64,000 bases of DNA from an uncultured bacterium (lineage in GTDB: Bacteria; Patescibacteriota; Minisyncoccia; Moranbacterales; UBA2206): positions 18,314 to 82,313 of the forward strand of contig CAIZXS010000012.1 in assembly GCA_903937035.1 (NCBI GenBank), in the 5' to 3' direction. Shown piece after piece: positions 2,762 to 49,344 of this stretch; the stretch's first letter is position 1; each line of letters opens with the position of its first letter. The translations under genes and the position numbers were made by a program. Under the pieces are notes generated by a model, which saw nothing but the letters and a program-made list of their open reading frames with translations, was not told the origin of the DNA and made no database searches.

Positions 2762-5755
2762 ATGCAGGAAGAATTGATTATTCGCGGAGCGCGCGAACAC
2801 AATCTGAAAAATATTAACCTCAATTTACCAAGAGGTAAATTTGTTGTGTTTACTGGAATATCTGGTTCAGGGAAAAGTACGCTGGCTTTTGATACGATTT
2901 TTGCCGAGGGACAAAGACGCTATTTGGAAAGTCTTTCTAGCTATGCGCGGCAGTTTTTGGGTCAAATGGGAAAACCGGAAGTGGATTCGATTGAGGGCCT
3001 CAGTCCTGCGATTTCGATTGACCAAAAAGCCGCTTCACACAATCCGCGCTCAACTGTGGGCACAGTGACGGAAATTCATGACTATTTGCGCTTGCTTTAT
3101 GCGAAAATTGGCACCGCGCATTGTCCGATTTGCAACCGGGAAATCGTGAAACTTTCCACAGATGAGATTGTGGACAGAATTTTGAATATTTGTACGGAGG
3201 AGGGCAAGAAATCGGCCAAGGATAATTGTGCAATTGAAATTTTTTCTCCAATTGTGCGAGAGCGCAAAGGTGAATATTCCACGCTTTTGGAGGAGATGTT
3301 TCGGCGTGGTTTTTCCACTGCGTTTGTGAATGGAAAAAAGCATGTCCTGGATGAAAAGATTGGGACGCGGGTAAAATTGGAACGCTACAAAAAACATAAT
3401 ATTGACATTTTGGTCGACAAAGTGGAAATAAATTCAGAGAATATTTCACGGATTTTTGAAGGCGTCGAGCAGGCACTGAAACTTTCCAAGGGTATTGTCA
3501 GAATAAAATTTCAAAATCCTAATTTCCAATTTCAAACCAAATCCAAAGTTCAAAATTCTAATGACAAAAAAGATAAAGAAATAAAAAAAGTTAAGGATGG
3601 AGAAAAAGATAAAATCAGCGAGATGATTTTTAATCAGAATTTTTCTTGCCCGGTGCATGAGGTGGATTTTCCCGAGCTCGAGCCGCGTTTGTTTTCTTTC
3701 AATAGCCCGTTTGGGGCTTGTCCATCTTGCGAAGGCTTGGGCGTGAAAAAGGAAATTGATCCCGATTTGGTTGTACCGGATATGAATAAAACCATCGCCG
3801 AAGGTGGAATCATGCCATGGAGTTACAAAAAAAATAACTGGCAGGGGACGATTTTGCGGGCTGTTACTAACTTCTATCACATCCGCGACAACGTGCGTTT
3901 GCGTGATTTATCGGAAGATGATTTTAATACTTTGCTCTATGGTGGACCTGACGCTGAGGATATGATTTCCGAAGACGCGGCCGATGAAATCCCCGTGACT
4001 CTGCGCAGCAAAACCGGATCAAGTTGGAAGTATAATATGCGTTGGCGGGGAGTGGTTGGTTATCTGCAGGAGCGTTATCTCAAAACGGATTCGGAAGGCG
4101 TGCGCACTGACATTGAAAAATACATGTCGCAAAATCCTTGTTCGACTTGTCTCGGGTCACGCTATAAAAAAGAAGTCTTGCTTGTGACCGTGGGAAATAA
4201 AAATATCCAAGAAGTTTCCATGATCAGCGTGCGGGAGACTTTAGATTTTTTTCAGAAAATAAAGTTTAGTAAACGCGAAGAACTGATTGCGAGCAGAATT
4301 CTCAAGGAAATTCAAAATCGCTTGGGTTTTTTACAAGATGTTGGTCTCGGGTATCTCTCGCTTGGTCGCGCGGCGAACACCCTGGCCGGTGGAGAGTCGC
4401 AACGCATTCGATTGGCTTCGCAAATCGGCTCACAGCTCGTTGGCGTGCTCTATATCCTCGATGAGCCATCGATTGGTCTTCATGCTCGTGACAACGCCAA
4501 GTTGCTCGCTACGCTCTTGCAATTACGCGATGTGGGAAATACTTTGATTGTGGTGGAGCACGACGAAGAAACAATGCGCGCGGCGGATTATCTAGTGGAC
4601 ATTGGACCGGGAGCGGGAAAACATGGCGGAGAAATTGTAGCGGAAGGCTCACCCGAAGAAGTGTTGAAAAGTGAAAAATCCTTGACGGCTAAATATTTAC
4701 GCGGTGATTTGCAGATCGAAATTCCTAATTTTCGGCGACCTTTGAAAAACAAAAAAACACTCGTAGTGCGGGGAGCACGCGAGCATAATTTGCAAAATAT
4801 CACTGTGTCATTTCCATTGAAAGTTTTGACTTGTGTGACGGGCGTGTCTGGGTCAGGAAAATCTACGCTTGTGGAAGATATTCTCTATAAAGCCCTGTCG
4901 GCCAAAATTATGCGTTCCTTGGAGCGACCAGGTAAACATAGTGAAATTGTCGGCGATCATTATCTCAACAAAGTGATTATGATTGATCAGTCGCCGATTG
5001 GTCGCACGCCCAGATCGAATCCGGCGACCTACACGGGTCTGTTTACTGCCATTCGCGAACTATTCGCCGAAACGCGCGACGCCAAAGCGAAAGGTTATTT
5101 GCCGGGAAGATTTTCCTTTAATGTTAAAGGTGGACGTTGCGATAATTGTCAGGGTGATGGGTATAACAAAATTGAAATGCAGTTTATGCCGGATGTCTAT
5201 CTTCCCTGTGATGTTTGTGCTGGAAAAAGATATAATAGCGAAACGCTCAAAGTGAAGTATCGTGATAAAAATATTGCCGATGTACTAGCCCTGACCATTT
5301 CCGAAGCCCGCGAATTTTTTGCTAATTTTCACGACATCGCGGACAAACTGAAAGTTCTCGAAGATGTCGGCTTGGGCTACATTCAACTCGGCCAATCCGC
5401 CACGACACTTTCCGGGGGAGAGGCCCAACGCATCAAGCTTTCCACCGAACTTTCTAGGCGAGCGACAGGGGATACACTCTACATTTTAGACGAACCGACA
5501 ACTGGCTTGCATTTTGATGACATTAAAAAACTACTAGGCATTCTCAATCGCTTGGTTGATGCAGGAAATACGGTTATTGTTATTGAACATAATTTAGACG
5601 TAATCAAAACCGCCGATTGGATTATTGATCTGGGACCGGAAGGTGGTAAAGAAGGTGGAAAGGTAATTGTCAGTGGTACGCCGGAAGAGGTGGCGAAGTG
5701 GCATAAGGAGAGTTGGACGGGGAAATATTTGAAGGAAGTTTTGAATAAAAAATAA
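2762..5755 (+). CDS. uvrA: Excinuclease ABC subunit A (UvrA), full-length two-ABC-module form with a low-complexity insertion
   Basis: '[53 protein letters not shown]' with two Walker A motifs ([18 protein letters not shown]). Zn-finger Cys pairs and ABC signatures [16 protein letters not shown]. Lys/Asn/Gln-rich insert around residues 255-285. Confidence 0.95.
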   Translation: MQEELIIRGAREHNLKNINLNLPRGKFVVFTGISGSGKSTLAFDTIFAEGQRRYLESLSSYARQFLGQMGKPEVDSIEGLSPAISIDQKAASHNPRSTVGTVTEIHDYLRLLYAKIGTAHCPICNREIVKLSTDEIVDRILNICTEEGKKSAKDNCAIEIFSPIVRERKGEYSTLLEEMFRRGFSTAFVNGKKHVLDEKIGTRVKLERYKKHNIDILVDKVEINSENISRIFEGVEQALKLSKGIVRIKFQNPNFQFQTKSKVQNSNDKKDKEIKKVKDGEKDKISEMIFNQNFSCPVHEVDFPELEPRLFSFNSPFGACPSCEGLGVKKEIDPDLVVPDMNKTIAEGGIMPWSYKKNNWQGTILRAVTNFYHIRDNVRLRDLSEDDFNTLLYGGPDAEDMISEDAADEIPVTLRSKTGSSWKYNMRWRGVVGYLQERYLKTDSEGVRTDIEKYMSQNPCSTCLGSRYKKEVLLVTVGNKNIQEVSMISVRETLDFFQKIKFSKREELIASRILKEIQNRLGFLQDVGLGYLSLGRAANTLAGGESQRIRLASQIGSQLVGVLYILDEPSIGLHARDNAKLLATLLQLRDVGNTLIVVEHDEETMRAADYLVDIGPGAGKHGGEIVAEGSPEEVLKSEKSLTAKYLRGDLQIEIPNFRRPLKNKKTLVVRGAREHNLQNITVSFPLKVLTCVTGVSGSGKSTLVEDILYKALSAKIMRSLERPGKHSEIVGDHYLNKVIMIDQSPIGRTPRSNPATYTGLFTAIRELFAETRDAKAKGYLPGRFSFNVKGGRCDNCQGDGYNKIEMQFMPDVYLPCDVCAGKRYNSETLKVKYRDKNIADVLALTISEAREFFANFHDIADKLKVLEDVGLGYIQLGQSATTLSGGEAQRIKLSTELSRRATGDTLYILDEPTTGLHFDDIKKLLGILNRLVDAGNTVIVIEHNLDVIKTADWIIDLGPEGGKEGGKVIVSGTPEEVAKWHKESWTGKYLKEVLNKK

Positions 5756-5765
5756 CACAATAAAG

Positions 5766-5955
5766 TGTCATCCCTGCGACCGCGTGCCGCCTTAGCTTTA
5801 GCGGTGGAGCAAGGCGGGGATCCAGGCACCTCGGGTCATAAGAAAAGAAAAACGAGATTTACTGGTTAAAAAATAAAAGTTAGAAGATTTATAATTCGAT
5901 TTTCCAGGGCTTAAAACTAGTGGAACCTAGATTCCCGCCTCCGCGGGAATGACAG
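5766..5955. repeat. MITE-like palindromic element (~190 bp) with terminal inverted repeats TGTCATCCCTGCG / CGCGGGAATGACA
   Basis: Ends are near reverse complements. Internal mini-palindrome attcccgcctccgcgggaat (5932-5950) is the reverse complement of the copy at 48722-48741. GC-rich relative to surroundings. Confidence 0.6.
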
Positions 5956-6041
5956 AGATGAGGGTTTTCAGGGAAAAAATAAAAGGCAGAAGTTTCATGA
6001 CAATGTCATAAAATTTCTGCCTTCACAAGGGACTTTTTGAC

Positions 6042-6260
6042 TTAACATCGATGGCCATAAAACAAAAATGACCATAGTGACAGTATTATCCATGGCAGGT
6101 TAATTATAATAAATATGAACAGAGCAATCTTCCTTGTCTTGTTGCTATATTCACTATCATTAAACTGTTCGGCTAAAATTCCTACGTAGAGTCCATAGGG
6201 AAATCCAATTATCCATAGAAAGAAATAAGTTAGGACAAAAGTATTCAATAACGTGTTCAT
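6042..6260 (-). CDS. Small two-TM membrane protein (72 aa), hypothetical
   Basis: Strong SD on minus strand (gaaaggaggtaaaaaaacgcATG). Hydrophobic throughout. Confidence 0.5.
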   Translation of the reverse strand: MNTLLNTFVLTYFFLWIIGFPYGLYVGILAEQFNDSEYSNKTRKIALFIFIIINLPWIILSLWSFLFYGHRC

Positions 6261-10700: not shown

Positions 10701-13700
10701 GACGCTAGTGTTTTTCCGACTTGGACGGGAGTAGGAAGTCTTGGGACTAATGCTGATGCCGTCTACAATCCGGAGCAAAGTGAAATTGGAACGATTCCGC
10801 TGACCGATATCTATAACTATGACAATACGGGAGGTGTCTTTTCAGTGAACTACCAATCCGCATCTTCGTGGACAATTTTTGGTGATGGAGCAAATACGGA
10901 AAATAACGATGCGGTCTATTTCGGTGATCAGGGAAACACGCCAATCTATGCCTTGGAGTTTAATATTGGAACGGCTATTGGCGCGACTGCTAGTCGAATT
11001 TGGGAATATTGGAATGGATCGGCTTGGACTGAATTTGTTCCAAAATTTGGTTGGAAATATGTCCCGCGCGGAACGAATAATTATGGAGTGGGGGAATATT
11101 GTATCCCGTTTAATGCTGATCCGATATATCCCACAGCCACTGTTCAAATGACGGACACAAACACGCTTTTTGCTCCAGGGCAATACGTGAAAATTAAAGA
11201 CAATGATTCGGCGACCATAATTAGGCGCATTTCCACGGTGACAGCCGGAGCTCCGGCCAATGTAGTTTTCACTGAAATTATTCCGAGTGGCTACACAATT
11301 GCTCAGTCGGCCAAAGTTTGCATTTCAAACGGCGGTCAATGGCTGCCGATGGCGGCAAGTGATTTATTTTCTCAAACCGGGCGTACGATGATTTCTTGGA
11401 ATGCTTGGGATATGCCAAGCGCGGCAAAAACGACAGTCAACAGCACGAATGCTTATTGGGTGAGAAATCGTATTTCTGATTTCACATCTTGGACAACCGC
11501 GCCAATAAATCAGACAACTTCAGTCAGCATGCAAGGAGTGGAAAATGTGAACTCAGAAAATCTGACTGTTTCCAGTTCGGTTAGCGAAGCGAAGATAAGT
11601 CAGCTTTCCAACGGAGTTTCTTTTGATCCCAATGAAACCTGGACCCTTCGATATGATGATAATTCTACAGCTGTTTCAACTCTAAAAACTACTCGCTGGT
11701 ATGAATCGCAACTTGCTTCCTGGGGAACGGCGCATCGTTGGCTCAGTCCCAATCCGGATGGGGAAACTTCTGCTTACTATGAAAAAAATTCACAGGAAGC
11801 CAACTGGCATAGTCTCAACGGTGATTTTTCTTGGACTGATCAAAGTGTCTACGCTAAAGTCTATATGAATCAGCCAGTAGACGCGACAGTGGGAAGGCGC
11901 GTGGGAATATTTTTGCGTCAAGATGGTGATGATTATGGCTATGCTGCTTACATAACTAAATCAACCACCGTTTCTACCTTGGGTTGGTATTCAACTGCGC
12001 TCGGAGCAGAAACGGCAATTGGTACGGCAACTAACATCACCTTTAATGCTAATCAGTGGTATTGTTTGCGCGCTGAAGCAAATGGCACAACTCTTCAGGC
12101 CAAATTTTGGTCACCAGTTTCAGAAGACGCCGATTGTAATGGTGATATCAATGAACCAGGGACTTGGACAGAATCAGAAATAAATCAAACCGCTTTTATT
12201 GCCGGACGATTCGGTTTGGCGGCGGACATAATGCTGGCGCGTTTTGATGATGTAACAGTGAAAAACACAGCTGGCACAGAAACCTGGTTTAATGATAATT
12301 TCAATGATACCGGTTGCTGGAAGGTAATTGGTTCCATTCATGGAAGTCAAGGATGTGCCTATAATTCAGTCCCATTCACTTCTAGCTATCTTAATTTTAC
12401 GCTAAAACATCGAGGGGGGGTGCAATCCGGAGAAACTGGAATCAACGCGATAATCGGCCCATTGAATGCTCCGGAAGAAGGCGATGAAATTTATCTTTCT
12501 CCCTTTGAGCGGGGATCAAGTATCGGACTTGATGAGGCCGTGGGCATCACCACTTCTGACGCAAAAACTAAATATGAAAATTGGGATTTTGTCTATAACT
12601 CAACTTCCGGAAAATATGATGTGACCGGTTCGCAATATGGAGCAGCTGGGACGGCTACACCCGGAGCGACCTATACCTCTCCGGATAGCGAGGTGACCTT
12701 GAGAATAAAAGCGGGAACACCGGTTGGGCCAAAGTTTGGCAATCGAGCAGCTTATTTTCAAAACAGTTTTCAAAGAGGGGTGGGAAATTTTACCGGACTC
12801 AATAATCAATCTTCGGCCATTATCATTCAACCAACCTGGGTAGTAGCTGGTTCAGCCACTGGGTATAATGTTGAAGGAATTGGCGGGGTAGCAACACAAA
12901 AAGGCACAATGGATTTTTGGTTTAAGCCGAATTTTTCCGGCAGTCCTGACTACATACAGTATCTGTTTGATTATGCTCCCAATGGAAATACGGATAGGAT
13001 TTTTGCGCGAATTATGCCCAATGGCGTAATTGAAACTGTGGTTGCCCCGACTTTTGGAGTTGGAGCGACAGGAAAATTGGTCAAATCTTTTTCTGCAACC
13101 GCTGGTCAATGGTATCATTTCCGTTTAGCCTGGGAAGATTCTGATGCTGGACAGCTTAATATTAAAAAGGCCTGGATTGATGGCGCGGCTTTTACGAGTG
13201 CCAGTCAAGGGACAGCCTTGGGAGCGAGAGCGGCTAATGCGGGTTATTTGCGGCTTGGTAATTCTTGGCAGTACAATGCCGGCTTTGATGGCGCGATGGA
13301 TGAGTTCGCTATTTTTGACGATGCTGTCGATACTTCTAGCAGTTGTGACTGGGCATCTTCAGTGGCATTTACTGTTCCCACTACTCCTTGGACCAATGGG
13401 CAAACGGCGGGATGTACCACTGGGGGCGGAGAAGTGAGAACGGGGAATATCATATTTTTGACTCATTTTGACAATGCTTTTGAAAAACAAAAAGGGACAA
13501 TGATGCCGGATTATTTTATTGGACATCCGGCGATGGTTTTCACTAATGGCGCGGAGACACTGACTGGAGACCGGCTTCGTGTGGTGACGTATCCCAAGAG
13601 AACCAGGATTTGGATGGACAATACCGGATCGCAATATACCCCCGCGGCCAGAATCAAATATTCCGAAGGCTATAATATTGGAACCGCTCCCGGAACGGAA

Positions 13701-26172: not shown

Positions 26173-27144
26173 ATGCACAGCTCGCTTTCCCAAAACATTC
26201 TTGCTACTATTGCATACTACGATGTCCTGGATTATCCCTTGACGGTTTTTGAATTGTGGAAATATTTGATTAGTAATCAGCAAGCAGTAGGTGGTGACGA
26301 GGAAAAAGACAAGGTAGTACTTATAGATATAATCAATGAAATAGAAAACGAAGAGCTGAAAAAGCAAATCGAAACTTTCCGTGGGTATTATTTTTTGCCA
26401 GGGCGCATTAATTTGGTGGCGCAAAGAATTGAGCGCAATAAGATATCTGAAGAAAAGTATGAGATAGTCCAGTGGGTCGTGCAGTTTTTGCGTTTTGTGC
26501 CATATGTGAGAATGATTTTGGTGACTGGTCGGGTGGCAATGAAAAATGCTGACAAAAAAAGTGATCTTGATCTCTTAATTTGTCTGGAAAAAGGAAGAAT
26601 TTTTACTGGTAGAACTTTAGTTACGCTAGCGATTCATCTTTTGGGAAAAAGGCGTTACGGAAAAAAAATTACAAATAGAATTTGTCTTAATTATTTTATT
26701 ACTACTGGATCTTTGGAGATTGAAATGCAAGATCTTTTCGCATCCTCGGAGTATTTTTTTGCTCTTCCCGTGTTTGGTTTTAATGTTTTTGGAGAATTTC
26801 AAAAAGCCAATGGCTGGATTTCTAAATATCATGAAAATTTTAGCTCCACGGAAATTCCAAATCTAAAATTGAAATCTGACAACTATTTTTCAAAGTTAAT
26901 TCGATCTGTTGGTGAGAAATTACTTGGCTTTGATTATCTTGAGCAAAAATTAAAAGTCTGGCAAACTAAAAGAATTGCCTTGGATCCACGTACGAATATG
27001 CCCGGAAGCATGATTGTTGCTGATGACAATTCTTTGGTTTTTTTGCCTGAGCCGCAGGGGCCGAAAGTTTTTGAAGCATTTAAGCTGAGAATGGAAAAAC
27101 TAGAAGAAAAACAGCAGAGATGCCCCGTTAGGACGTCTGCTTGA
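26173..27144 (+). CDS. Nucleotidyltransferase-fold (Pol beta-like minimal NTase) domain protein, hypothetical
   Basis: 'LVTGRVAMKNADKKSDLDLLI' matches the G[SG]-x(9-13)-D[LI]D NTase motif. Start moved to 26173 (MHSSLSQ) to avoid the MITE. Confidence 0.45.
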   Translation: MHSSLSQNILATIAYYDVLDYPLTVFELWKYLISNQQAVGGDEEKDKVVLIDIINEIENEELKKQIETFRGYYFLPGRINLVAQRIERNKISEEKYEIVQWVVQFLRFVPYVRMILVTGRVAMKNADKKSDLDLLICLEKGRIFTGRTLVTLAIHLLGKRRYGKKITNRICLNYFITTGSLEIEMQDLFASSEYFFALPVFGFNVFGEFQKANGWISKYHENFSSTEIPNLKLKSDNYFSKLIRSVGEKLLGFDYLEQKLKVWQTKRIALDPRTNMPGSMIVADDNSLVFLPEPQGPKVFEAFKLRMEKLEEKQQRCPVRTSA

Positions 27145-27177
27145 CTAAGTCTTTCGTTTTTGTCAAAATAGAAGATA

Positions 27178-27204
27178 TTAGCACTCTAGCCTTATGATTG
27201 CTAA
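27178..27204 (+). promoter_or_regulatory. CIRCE element (HrcA operator) TTAGCACTC-N9-GATTGCTAA
   Basis: Left arm identical to consensus TTAGCACTC. Right arm GATTGCTAA has one mismatch to GAGTGCTAA. About 215 bp upstream of groEL. Confidence 0.75.
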
Positions 27205-27207
27205 AAC

Positions 27208-27363
27208 GATATCCTCCTCGCCCTTAGGGAGAGGATGTCACGAGCACGTGACAGGTGAGGGTTCTTGCTAATACGGGGAAGCTGTTGGTTATATTGAAAG
27301 CTTTGGTGTTATTGATAGCACCCTCATCCGCCCTTCGGGCACCTTCTCCCGGAGGGAGAAGAG
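27208..27363. repeat. ~155-nt multi-hairpin repeat element, copy 1 (inverted relative to copy at 48800-48953); candidate structured RNA or MITE
   Basis: Hairpins atcctc..gaggat, gtcacgagcacgtgac, gtgagggt..accctcat, gcccttcgggc and cttctcccggagggagaag. Copy 2 reverse complement aligns with compensatory changes. Confidence 0.6.
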
Positions 27364-27400
27364 AAATTAAATGACAATTTGTTTAATTTATAGAAAATAA

Positions 27401-48718: not shown

Positions 48719-48746
48719 CATTCCCGCGGAGGCGGGAATCCAGTGG
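48719..48746. repeat. Mini-palindrome TGTCATTCCCGCGGAGGCGGGAATCCAG (solo fused ends of the GTCATTCCCGC element family)
   Basis: attcccgcggaggcgggaat is a perfect 20-bp palindrome and the reverse complement of 5932-5950. Confidence 0.7.
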
Positions 48747-48799: not shown

Positions 48800-48953
48800 C
48801 CTCTTCTCCCCTCGGGAGAAGGTGGCCGGAGGCCGGATGAGGGTGCTCACAGAAACAATAAAAAACTTTAATTTAGTTGGTGGTTTTCTATGTGTTGGTG
48901 AAAACCCTCACCTGTCCTTCGGACATCCTCTCCCGGAGGGCGAGGAGGATATT
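48800..48953. repeat. ~155-nt multi-hairpin repeat element, copy 2 (inverted relative to 27208-27363)
   Basis: cttctcccctcgggagaag, ggccggaggccgg, gatgagggtgct..aaccctcacc, tgtccttcggaca, tcctctcccggagggcgaggagga. Aligns to reverse complement of copy 1 with hairpin-preserving substitutions. Confidence 0.6.
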
Positions 48954-49041: not shown

Positions 49042-49344
49042 CTATTTTTTTCTAAAAACAACCCAATATCCAGAAGGGTCGGAGTGCGCGGTTATCGGAA
49101 ATGCGGTTGCGAGGCAATAGCCCGCGTCCTCTTGTTGCTTAAGGAGGGTTGAAAACGTTTTTCCGAAATCATCTGACTTTGTTGTGTTGTATGGTGAATA
49201 GATATAAAATAAATCATTTCCATAATCAACAATGAAGCATCTTCCAGCTTCTGTTTTTGGTTGGTCGGTTATGTCAGCCATAGTTGGCGTAACAGGAACG
49301 AGTAGAATGATCGCCATTGCAAAAACTATTGCACACTTTTTCAT
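49042..49344 (-). CDS. Small secreted hypothetical protein (100 aa)
   Basis: SD aaaaggagaatcgaaaATG on minus strand. Signal peptide MKKCAIVFAMAIILLVPVTPTMA. Confidence 0.5.
   Translation of the reverse strand: MKKCAIVFAMAIILLVPVTPTMADITDQPKTEAGRCFIVDYGNDLFYIYSPYNTTKSDDFGKTFSTLLKQQEDAGYCLATAFPITAHSDPSGYWVVFRKK

What the first reader, a model, noticed from the sequence alone, without database searches (positions are those of the whole stretch)
27208..27363. 155-nt multi-hairpin element present twice (27208-27363 and 48800-48953, inverted) with hairpin-preserving compensatory substitutions
Aligning copy 1 to the reverse complement of copy 2 shows conserved blocks (atatcctcctcgccc, gagaggatgtc, acaggtgagggtt, agcaccctcatcc, accttctccc, ggagaag) interrupted by a variable centre.

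Where the copies differ, base pairing is maintained:
- gtcacg-agca-cgtgac vs tgtcc-ttcg-ggaca.
- gccc-ttcg-gggc vs ggcc-tcc-ggcc.
- ccc-ttag-ggg vs ccc-gga-ggg.

Structure-preserving change, including UUCG tetraloops, argues for selection on RNA (or ssDNA) secondary structure rather than a decaying selfish repeat. This makes it a candidate novel structured RNA or structure-dependent mobile element.

One copy lies in the groEL 5' leader just after CIRCE. The other follows the GTCATTCCCGC mini-palindrome.
Basis: seen in the sequence. Interest (0 to 1): 0.65.

Follow-up and report, generated by a model that had tools for sequence, protein, structure and literature searches.

The report
Paired BoxC triplex-motif repeat element
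The two 155-base copies are real members of a repeat family long known from E. coli as BoxC or "potential intrastrand triplex" motifs, here in a new form in a tiny uncultured bacterium, and following them up showed that such repeats sit next to genes for a small DUF559 nuclease in many bacterial groups, which may at last explain how they spread.

Summary
Two about 155-nt copies (27209-27364 +, 48800-48952 -) share near-identical arms, a diverged centre and compensated changes in two small GC hairpins.

It is not a new RNA class. Each arm is a BoxC / PIT / TMECO motif: pyrimidine strand, loop, purine strand GGGAGAGGA, then a mirror "third strand" AGGTGAGGG. The two arms face each other, as in the E. 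coli inverted BoxC pairs. The host is a Candidatus Moraniibacteriota (CPR) bacterium.

What is new in this variant:
- Loop 2 is an 11-18 nt hairpin, and this is where the covariation lies.
- The centre is about 55 nt.
- G-quadruplex potential is lost.
- Copies lie co-oriented just after stop codons (18 vs 2 between tandem genes).

Both window copies are absent from the same sites in close relatives.

One CPR-type copy (L121) carries a DUF559 (Vsr-like) endonuclease gene between its arms. In independent samples, DUF559 genes are flanked by triplex-type arms in many phyla, including E. coli ycjD.

Best reading: a non-autonomous doublet of a DUF559-associated repeat system, analogous to REPIN/RAYT. 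Mobilisation by DUF559 is inferred, not shown.

The parts
27209..27364 (+). Copy 1, whole element (L arm, centre, R arm), in the groEL 5' leader
   Evidence: nhmmer E=1e-51; RNA fold -69.1 kcal/mol, z=-4.3
27215..27235 (+). Copy 1 L-arm hairpin. Pyrimidine strand TCCTCGCCC, loop TTA, purine strand GGGAGAGGA, with a G.A mismatch as in E. coli 'type A mm' BoxC
27236..27253 (+). Copy 1 loop-2 hairpin (GTCACG-AGCA-CGTGAC). This helix covaries across the family
   Evidence: pair 34/48: CG 20, AU 13, GC 1
27253..27261 (+). Copy 1 L-arm 'third strand' AGGTGAGGG, the mirror image of GGGAGAGGA. It also forms the 5' half of the central stem
27262..27320 (+). Copy 1 centre: homologous across the family but fast-evolving, with no conserved fold
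27321..27329 (+). Copy 1 CCCTCATCC, the complement of the R-arm third strand GGATGAGGG and the 3' half of the central stem
27330..27340 (+). Copy 1 R-arm loop-2 hairpin GCCC-TTC-GGGC (covarying)
   Evidence: pairs 144/157 and 146/155
27342..27362 (+). Copy 1 R-arm hairpin CCTTCTCCC-GGA-GGGAGAAGA
48800..48952 (-). Copy 2, whole element, in the 731-nt spacer between the convergent genes RecG (-) and GT4 glycosyltransferase (+), 93 nt downstream of an orphan 100-aa ORF
   Evidence: E=3e-50; RNA fold -71.2 kcal/mol, z=-6.9
48926..48946 (-). Copy 2 L-arm hairpin TCCTCGCCC-TCC-GGGAGAGGA
48913..48925 (-). Copy 2 loop-2 hairpin (GTCC-GAA-GGAC)
48905..48913 (-). Copy 2 L-arm third strand AGGTGAGGG
48844..48904 (-). 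Copy 2 centre
48824..48843 (-). Copy 2 CCCTCATCC plus the R-arm loop-2 hairpin GGCC-TCC-GGCC
48802..48822 (-). Copy 2 R-arm hairpin CCTTCTCCC-GAG-GGGAGAAGA. Only here is it followed by GGCTTTTTC, which scores as terminator-like
27141..27204 (+). Context of copy 1: promoter-like TTGACT-17-CAAAAT (27141-27169) and CIRCE-like TTAGCACTC-N9-GATTGCTAA (27178-27204). Both are conserved in relatives whether or not the element is present

Best explanation
Each copy is a non-autonomous, about 155-bp palindromic doublet of two BoxC / PIT-type 'intrastrand triplex' modules. It is a CPR (Moraniibacteriota) variant of the inverted BoxC pairs known from E. coli.

Anatomy (shown):
- An arm consists of a 9-bp pyrimidine/purine hairpin, a small GC hairpin in place of the usual 3-nt loop 2, and a G-rich strand that mirrors the purine strand.
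- Two slightly different arms face each other across a drifting centre. The L arm has GGGAGAGGA|AGGTGAGGG and the R arm has GGGAGAAGG|GGATGAGGG.

Behaviour (shown):
- Multi-copy and intergenic.
- Present or absent at orthologous sites.
- Arms conserved while the centre is replaced.
- Only the spacer hairpins covary.
- Inserted mostly just after stop codons in the sense orientation, so the element is co-transcribed with the upstream gene.

Mechanism (inferred):
- The doublets are the gene-less partners of units in which the same kind of arms flank a DUF559 (Vsr-like, PD-(D/E)XK) endonuclease gene. This parallels REPIN doublets and their RAYT gene.
- The arms act in a folded single-stranded or fold-back form that the nuclease recognises. 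The conserved G.A or G.T mismatch in the arm hairpin is a candidate recognition feature for a mismatch-type Vsr-like enzyme.
- Arm sequence is therefore fixed, while the spacer hairpin only has to stay a hairpin.
- As a secondary effect, the element adds a very stable hairpin (about -70 kcal/mol) to the groEL leader and to 3' ends of other mRNAs.
For: Identity:
- The arms match the TMECO/BoxC sequences of Table 1 in PMC4666352, including the G.A mismatch of the 'mm' type.
- The E. coli pair after hrpB has the same head-to-head layout and starts 12 nt after a stop codon.
- The mirror rule holds in both arms and in rarer variants (342 mirror matches downstream vs 10 upstream among 766 overlapping 8-mer windows; these loci were fetched with patterns containing the third strands, so the count is not independent). 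One copy changed the purine strand and the third strand together (L142).

Family:
- Copies occur in Moraniibacteriota, Xanthomonadales and Armatimonadota, with the unconstrained R-arm sequence conserved.
- 120 or more further loci were found in metagenomes.
- There are 46 full CPR-type copies at 32 distinct loci.

Mobility:
- Copy 1's site is filled in the window and in L156 but not in L158, L159 or L160.
- The RecG-GT4 spacer is 731 nt here, against 176, 92 and 82 nt in relatives that lack the element.
- Solo modules sit in-frame inside uvrC of L158.

Constraint:
- At the orthologous site the arms are 86-96% identical, the centre 42% and the flanks 67-79%.
- Covariation is found only in the loop-2 hairpins.

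Orientation:
- 18 sense vs 2 antisense between tandem genes (p=4e-4). Nine of the 18 start 4-10 nt after the stop codon.
- GC skew stays positive across the window, so the two oppositely oriented copies lie on one replichore.

DUF559 link:
- The gene lies between the arms in L121 (CPR type) and L069, and beside arms in L017.
- In 39 DUF559 loci sampled without regard to repeats, module density within 200 nt of the gene is about 12 times that of the far flanks. Shuffled loci give none.
- L193, L190 and L169 show arm-gene-arm units. L193 and L190 also carry gene-less doublets of the same arm type on the same contig.
- In 7 of 10 named organisms a module lies within about 140 nt of the gene, and in an eighth (Neisseria gonorrhoeae) about 190 nt away. 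The 7 are Azospirillum, Synechocystis, Photobacterium, Deinococcus, Sinorhizobium, Methylobacterium and Klebsiella.
- E. coli ycjD lies 168 nt from TMECO 9.
- A DUF559 protein (Caulobacter VsrA) causes DNA damage in vivo (PMC12907096).
Against: - No target-site duplication or clean empty site was found, so classical cut-and-paste transposition is not shown.
- DUF559 is not a known transposase, and no DUF559 gene lies in this 64-kb window.
- The geometry of arms around DUF559 genes varies. It is inward-facing in L193, L169, S. meliloti, L121 and L069. It is outward-facing or one-sided in Deinococcus, Synechocystis, Klebsiella and E. coli.
- 7 of 14 DUF559 clusters from viral contigs, and 2 of 10 named organisms, show no module with my detector.
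- The strong sense-orientation bias and the modestly greater RNA stability of the sense strand also fit selection at the RNA level (25 of 35 copies, p=0.002, copies not independent).
- The same bias was not seen in the few Xanthomonadales copies and was not reported for E. coli.
- High arm conservation could come from gene conversion between copies rather than from recognition by a protein.
Confidence: 0.62

Rival explanations
1. A cis-acting structured RNA. The element is kept because, once transcribed at the 3' end of the upstream gene (or in the groEL leader), its long hairpin does one of three things. It could protect the mRNA from 3' exonucleases, pause or stop transcription, or stall terminating ribosomes, as described for REP sequences close to stop codons.
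For: - Sense orientation in 18 of 20 tandem-gene loci, with half of the copies starting 4-10 nt after the stop codon.
- Very stable folds, z=-4.3 and -6.9.
- Two invariant G.U pairs and several variable ones exist only on the sense strand. The sense RNA is on average 3 kcal/mol more stable.
- Compensatory changes in the two small hairpins.
- Copy 2's last hairpin is followed by a T run.
Against: - No Rfam family matches.
- Covariation is confined to two 4-5 bp hairpins, and the centre has no conserved fold.
- No U tract follows most copies; their right flank is GGATATAAA.
- Close relatives lack the element at both sites. The same arms occur around a nuclease gene and inside coding sequence.
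- E. coli PIT elements showed no promoter or terminator activity (PMC4666352).
- Short intergenic spacers alone would push insertions close to the stop codon.
Confidence: 0.2
2. A host DNA-structure element. The arms fold into intrastrand triplexes or H-DNA on single-stranded DNA and are kept because they modulate replication, repair or recombination. This is the 'genomic instability' idea of Holder et al.
For: - The mirror symmetry between purine strand and third strand is kept in both arms even though it costs a G.U wobble in the long hairpin (34 of 35 copies). It recurs with different sequences in other lineages.
- Both window copies sit in hypervariable spacers.
- TMECO oligonucleotides form stable triplexes in vitro (PMC4666352).
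Against: - In E. coli, in vivo footprinting gave no sign of a triplex and double-stranded DNA stayed duplex.
- This idea explains neither the sense-orientation bias, nor the spread to new sites, nor the link with DUF559 genes.
- An 11-18 nt hairpin between the duplex and the third strand is not needed for a triplex.
Confidence: 0.1
3. A G-quadruplex / hairpin / duplex switch, as proposed for the same E. coli sequences (HPGQ motifs).
For: E. coli and Xanthomonadales arms carry four G3 or longer tracts (GGGAGAGGGTTAGGGTGAGGG).
Against: The window's arms read GGGAGAGGA-[13-18 nt hairpin]-AGGTGAGGG. That leaves only two GGG tracts, separated by a long structured spacer, so a canonical intramolecular G4 is lost while the hairpin and mirror features are kept.
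Confidence: 0.03

Closest known systems
BoxC / PIT elements / TMECO triplex motifs / HPGQ, especially the inverted type A + type B pairs of E. coli K-12 (Holder et al. 2015, PMC4666352; Kaplan et al. 2016, PMC5100583; Hoyne and Maher 2000/2002 as cited there)
   Same: - Same module order: pyrimidine strand, loop, purine strand GGGAGAGG, loop, mirror strand GGTGAGGG.
- Same G.A mismatch variant (CTCGCCC/GGGAGAG).
- Two non-identical arms placed head to head.
- Intergenic and multi-copy.
- The E. coli pair after hrpB starts 12 nt past the stop codon.
   Different: - Loop 2 is an 11-18 nt GC hairpin instead of 3 nt. This is outside the 1-6 nt loops searched by ITxF.
- The centre is about 55 nt instead of 16-27 nt.
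- Purine tracts are shortened, so G4 potential is lost.
- There is a strong sense-orientation bias, which was not reported for E. coli.
- The host is a CPR bacterium with 41% GC.
REPIN doublets and their RAYT (TnpA-REP) genes
   Same: - Two short inverted palindromic repeats form a long hairpin with a less conserved spacer.
- They are dispersed in intergenic DNA.
- A small nuclease gene is flanked by the same repeats.
- Hairpins are kept by compensated changes.
   Different: - The flanked gene is a DUF559 / Vsr-like PD-(D/E)XK nuclease, not a Y1 HUH transposase.
- The arms carry a mirror third strand.
- No mobilisation has been shown for DUF559.
Bacterial MITEs that fold as RNA and also enter genes: Correia/NEMIS, ERIC, and RPE of Rickettsia (reviews PMC2229807, PMC3184786)
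   Same: - Size of 100-170 bp with terminal inverted repeats and a stable long stem-loop.
- Co-transcription with neighbouring genes.
- In-frame occurrence inside coding genes, seen here for solo modules in uvrC of L158.
   Different: - No TA or other target duplication was found.
- No IS-type transposase shares these ends.
- The arms are themselves hairpins with a mirror strand.

Membership tests
BoxC / PIT / TMECO intrastrand triplex motif | 8-10 nt pyrimidine strand, short loop, complementary purine strand (CCCTCTCCC / GGGAGAGGG-like) | tested here: met
   TCCTCGCCC-TTA-GGGAGAGGA and CCTTCTCCC-GGA-GGGAGAAGA in both copies. 92-96% of cells are paired across 35 copies.
BoxC / PIT / TMECO intrastrand triplex motif | Third G-rich strand that mirrors the purine strand (G on G, A or T on A) | tested here: met
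   GGGAGAGGA|AGGTGAGGG and GGGAGAAGG|GGATGAGGG. The arm-specific G/A difference is mirrored, and one copy changed both strands together.
BoxC / PIT / TMECO intrastrand triplex motif | Short loop 2 (3 nt in E. coli; 1-6 nt in the ITxF definition) | tested here: not met
   Loop 2 is an 11-18 nt stem-loop in both arms. This is why I call it a variant.
BoxC / PIT / TMECO intrastrand triplex motif | Intergenic, multi-copy, often as inverted pairs of two arm types | tested here: met
   32 distinct intergenic loci of the CPR type, each with an L-type and an R-type arm.
BoxC / PIT / TMECO intrastrand triplex motif | The single strand actually folds into a triplex | not testable with these tools
   Needs CD, NMR or footprinting on the CPR arm.
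MITE | Terminal inverted repeats, under 300 bp, no ORF, many copies | tested here: met
   Each copy matches its own reverse complement (E=1e-12 to 1e-19). The ends read ATATCC...GGATAT in most copies.
MITE | Target-site duplication | tested here: inconclusive
   No consistent direct repeat flanks 38 copies. No clean empty site was available.
MITE | A longer relative with the same ends that encodes the mobilising enzyme | tested here: inconclusive
   L121 has the same arms around a DUF559 gene, but DUF559 is not an established transposase.
MITE | Presence/absence polymorphism at orthologous sites | tested here: met
REPIN / RAYT system | Inverted doublet of short palindromic repeats that forms one long hairpin | tested here: met
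REPIN / RAYT system | Repeats flank a Y1 HUH (RAYT) transposase gene | tested here: not met
   The gene found between or beside the arms is DUF559 (PF04480). No RAYT came to light, although RAYT genes were not searched for systematically.
Known structured RNA family (Rfam 15) | Match to a covariance model | tested here: not met
   Only tRNAs at the gathering threshold. Nothing better than E=0.68 around copy 1.
Intrinsic terminator | GC-rich hairpin followed by a U tract | tested here: inconclusive
   Copy 2's last hairpin plus CTTTTTC qualifies. Copy 1 and most family members are followed by A-rich sequence.
G-quadruplex motif (HPGQ) | Four G3 or longer tracts with short loops | tested here: not met
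   Two GGG tracts per arm, separated by a 13-18 nt hairpin.

The most novel reading that the evidence does not exclude
BoxC / PIT triplex-motif repeats have been unexplained since the 1990s. The most novel reading is that they are the cis elements of a widespread system run by DUF559 (Vsr-like) endonucleases, comparable to REPIN/RAYT. The nuclease gene sits between or beside arms whose sequence co-varies with the lineage but always keeps three features: the hairpin, the spacer hairpin and the mirror strand. Gene-less doublets, such as the two in this window, would be its dispersed non-autonomous copies. The system would span CPR, Proteobacteria, Cyanobacteria, Deinococcota and others. In E. 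coli it would pair the orphan gene ycjD with the 23 BoxC motifs.
Probability: 0.45. Interest if true: 0.8.

Novelty: new variant of a known kind. Interest (0 to 1): 0.6.

Why it matters
The repeat itself is a known kind, so the element is not a new RNA class. Three points still matter.

1. It extends BoxC/PIT motifs to the reduced genomes of CPR bacteria, in a form that earlier triplex searches could not see because loop 2 is a hairpin. In that form the quadruplex option is lost while the hairpin and mirror features are kept, which narrows what is under constraint.

2. The family shows a strong transcription-sense bias and sits next to stop codons. This was not described for the E. coli motifs.

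3. The repeated finding of DUF559 nuclease genes between or beside such arms gives an open question a direct test. It was seen in unrelated samples and named organisms, including E. coli ycjD. The questions are what BoxC motifs are and how they spread, and the test needs only a purifiable E. coli protein and defined DNA substrates.

I found no paper in the searchable library that links DUF559 with these repeats. That is absence of evidence in that library only.

Tried and rejected
- Rfam at the gathering threshold and at permissive E-values gave nothing relevant.
- Synteny of the first 150 fetched loci with the window gave none at the two sites.
- The exact-protein look-up of the ORF upstream of copy 1 returned only the same strain.
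- I spent one homology search on the 100-aa ORF next to copy 2. It has only two near-identical relatives, so it was useless for orthology. RecG was used instead.
- A search for a conserved fold in the centre found none.
- The target-site duplication search found no consistent repeat.
- Orientation in the Xanthomonadales-type copies had too few informative loci and showed no bias.
- I first assumed that the ORF upstream of copy 1 is HrcA. It has no Pfam match, and sources name it hypothetical or 'predicted nucleotidyltransferase'.
- Integron attC, DGR template/variable repeats, 6S RNA and IS200/IS605 ends were considered from memory and dropped, because none has the pyrimidine-purine-mirror arm.
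- The Caulobacter CIR and E. coli RU-3 repeats may overlap with this family. I could not check their sequences.

Full report

Yes. Copy 1 (27209-27364, + strand) and copy 2 (48800-48952, - strand) align over their whole length. The flanks are almost identical and the centre is diverged.

A profile made from the two copies finds only these two places in the window, at E=1e-51 and 3e-50. The 22-nt R-arm pattern is never found in shuffled sequence. Both copies fold far better than shuffles: -69.1 kcal/mol (z=-4.3) and -71.2 kcal/mol (z=-6.9).

The element is therefore a large imperfect palindrome made of two similar arms that face each other.

**2. What are the arms?**

Each arm reads as follows: pyrimidine strand (TCCTCGCCC), 3-nt loop, purine strand (GGGAGAGGA), a small GC hairpin, then AGGTGAGGG. 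That last block is the purine strand written backwards, with T allowed for A. The other arm, read on the opposite strand, is CCTTCTCCC / GGGAGAAGG / hairpin / GGATGAGGG.

A literature search for these words led to Holder et al. 2015 (PMC4666352) and Kaplan et al. 2016 (PMC5100583). This is the BoxC motif of E. coli. It was later called PIT (potential intrastrand triplex) element, TMECO and HPGQ.

E. coli K-12 has 23 such motifs, and ten of them form five inverted pairs, each made of two different types. The commonest E. coli type even has the same G.A mismatch (CCCTCGCCCC...GGGGAGAGGG) as the window copies. The pair after hrpB has the same head-to-head layout and starts 12 nt after the stop codon.

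According to those papers the function is unknown. They report no promoter or terminator activity, a triplex in vitro but not in vivo, and an association with variable loci.

**3. The family around this window**

The neighbouring proteins place the window in Candidatus Moraniibacteriota.

A scan of species-representative genomes used only the two third-strand blocks as the pattern. It returned the complete architecture in Moraniibacteriota, many Xanthomonadales and an Armatimonadota MAG. The R-arm sequence, which the pattern did not constrain, is nearly the same in all of them.

The contigs range from 37% to 67% GC.

With a profile I collected 46 full CPR-type copies at 32 distinct loci.

**4. 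Structure and covariation**

On 35 distinct copies (alignment A2):
- The arm hairpins and the 8-bp central stem (GGTGAGGG with CCCTCATC) are almost invariant, so they say nothing either way.
- The two loop-2 hairpins carry the compensated changes. The counts of double changes are 14 (pair 34/48), 2 (32/50), 4 (144/157) and 9 (146/155).
- 0 of 500 shuffles reach the observed covariation score, and slid registers collapse.
- The centre is homologous among copies but has no conserved fold.

The mirror rule between purine strand and third strand is kept in both arms, although this forces a G.U wobble in the long hairpin in 34 of 35 copies. In the one copy where the L-arm purine strand changed (GGGAGAAGA), the third strand changed with it (AGATGAGGG).

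**5. Is it a fixture of groEL regulation?**

No. The promoter-like site and the CIRCE-like operator are conserved in four relatives. The element follows them only in the window and in L156, where the neighbouring protein is 87% identical. L158 (83%) and L159/L160 (77%) have unrelated AT-rich DNA there.

Between the window and L156:
- The arms are 86-96% identical.
- The flanks are 67-79% identical.
- The centre is unrelated (42%).
- The R-arm spacer hairpin differs by a compensated GC to CG exchange.

Copy 2 lies in a 731-nt RecG-GT4 spacer. That spacer is 176, 92 and 82 nt long in relatives whose RecG is 93%, 89% and 83% identical, and it lacks the element there.

No clean empty site or target duplication could be defined.

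**6. Orientation**

Between tandem genes, 18 distinct loci have the element in the sense orientation and 2 in the antisense orientation (binomial p=4e-4). In 9 of the 18 the element starts 4-10 nt after the upstream stop codon.

GC skew is positive across the whole window. The two oppositely oriented copies therefore lie on the same replichore, and each follows the local upstream ORF.

The sense RNA is on average 3 kcal/mol more stable than the antisense RNA (25 of 35 copies). With DNA parameters the two strands are essentially equally stable on average.

The few Xanthomonadales copies show no such orientation bias.

**7. The lead that changes the picture**

In L121 an otherwise typical CPR-type element has, in place of the right half of its centre, a 105-aa ORF in the sense orientation. 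The ORF is a DUF559 / Vsr-like endonuclease (PF04480, E=6e-37).

A tblastn search of all held loci found only two more DUF559 genes:
- In L069 the gene again lies between an L-type and an R-type arm. A gene-less doublet with the same sub-terminal sequence lies 200 nt away.
- In L017 the gene abuts an array of Xanthomonadales-type doublets.

In E. coli K-12 the only gene annotated as DUF559 in the region examined, ycjD, ends 168 nt from TMECO 9. A duplicated fragment of the gene's 3' end lies between them. With 18 TMECO loci in 4.6 Mb, the chance of that proximity is about 0.002 by my estimate.

To remove the selection bias I sampled DUF559 genes without regard to repeats.
- In 39 loci from viral contigs (14 protein clusters), 18 have a triplex-type module within 250 nt. 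Module density within 200 nt of the gene is about 12 times that of the far flanks, and shuffled loci give none.
- L193, L190 and L169 show the layout arm (hairpin, GC spacer hairpin, mirror strand), short inverted repeat, DUF559 ORF, inverted repeat, arm. L193 and L190 also carry gene-less doublets of the same arm type on the same contig.
- The arm sequence differs between lineages (for example CTTCCCCC / GGGGGAGGA / GGAGGGGG), yet the hairpin, the spacer hairpin and the mirror rule are kept.
- Among ten named organisms from the plasmid collection, a module lies within about 140 nt of the DUF559 gene in seven: Azospirillum, Synechocystis, Photobacterium, Deinococcus, Sinorhizobium, Methylobacterium and Klebsiella. 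In Neisseria gonorrhoeae the nearest module is about 190 nt away. None was detected in Sphingobium or Picosynechococcus.
- The geometry is not uniform. It is inward-facing in some lineages and outward-facing or one-sided in others.

**8. Interpretation**

Shown:
- The element is a BoxC/PIT-type inverted doublet.
- It is multi-copy and variably present.
- It is constrained in its arms and in the pairing of its spacer hairpins.
- It is sense-oriented after genes.

Shown statistically: DUF559 genes are associated with such arms across phyla.

Inferred: the doublets are non-autonomous partners of DUF559-carrying units, by analogy with REPIN doublets and RAYT genes. The arms would work in a folded single-stranded or fold-back form recognised by the nuclease.

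Two further points fit this inference but remain speculation. DUF559 proteins are Vsr-like mismatch endonucleases, and one of them damages DNA in vivo (PMC12907096). The arm hairpin carries a conserved G.A or G.T mismatch.

An RNA-level role in 3' UTRs is not excluded and may coexist with this.

**9. Novelty**

The kind is known. New here are the CPR form (hairpin in loop 2, long centre, no G4) and its orientation bias.

I could not find the DUF559 association in the searchable literature. The library lacks most subscription papers, so prior description cannot be ruled out.

Noticed in passing
window 5931-5950 and 48720-48739; L158 4211-4245 and 4341-4390; L163 about 3060-3110: A second small repeat, (GTC)ATTCCCGC-NNNN-GCGGGAAT(GAC), occurs twice in the window, against 0.19 expected. 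It recurs in related Moraniibacteriota contigs, sometimes with a longer loop. It looks like a separate REP-like palindrome family.
   Followed up: partly
L158 5088-5106, 5349-5367, 5740-5758 (inside uvrC, 4945-6231): Three solo E. coli-type BoxC modules (CCCCTCTCC-TTACTAA-GGAGAGGG-TTRG-GGGTGAGG on the opposite strand) lie in-frame inside uvrC. They are translated as LTPALSLVRRG-like inserts in variable loops, where two relatives have other inserts or none. This resembles Rickettsia palindromic elements inside genes.
   Followed up: partly
L163 3138-3156: In the closest relative, the GT4 glycosyltransferase gene next to the copy-2 site ends inside a solo BoxC module. The repeat therefore supplies the C-terminus and the stop codon.
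   Followed up: no
window 49042-49344 (-): The 100-aa ORF upstream of copy 2 has a signal-peptide-like start (MKKCAIVFAMAIILLVPVTPTMA). It has only two near-identical relatives among 5.8 billion proteins. It lies in the window-specific 600-nt extra DNA between RecG and GT4.
   Followed up: partly
L156 11066-11220; L075 11388-11539; L087 7472-7625; L164 17414-17550: A sub-family has a different centre closed by GGGCAAGGG...CCCTTGCCC. At the orthologous groEL site the window has the common centre and L156 has this one. This suggests replacement by recombination between copies, or a second insertion at the same spot.
   Followed up: partly
L006 2490-2683; L118 1609-1789; L015 4200-4373: Some copies are 25-45 nt longer because extra small GC palindromes (for example GCCTGCCTGCCGGTAGGCAGGG) are nested symmetrically in both arms.
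   Followed up: no
L156 uvrC and L159 uvrC variable loops; L158 groEL leader (about 11300-11480): An AT-rich repeat of the type AATTTTCAATTTCCAATTTCAAA appears in intergenic DNA. Translated as NFQFPISNFQ, it also appears inside uvrC loops of relatives. It is another repeat that enters coding sequence.
   Followed up: no
L168 1940-2130 (E. coli K-12, between ycjD and fabI): A duplicated fragment of the ycjD 3' end (METVLENIRQGLNR...) lies between ycjD and the BoxC motif. A perfect 17-bp palindrome built from third-strand-like words (CACCTCATTC...GAATGAGGTG) overlaps the ycjD start codon.
   Followed up: no
L003 1347-1578 and L017 3430-3880: Tandem arrays of doublets, two in an Armatimonadota MAG and four or more in a gammaproteobacterial MAG. 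They are reminiscent of BIME clusters.
   Followed up: no
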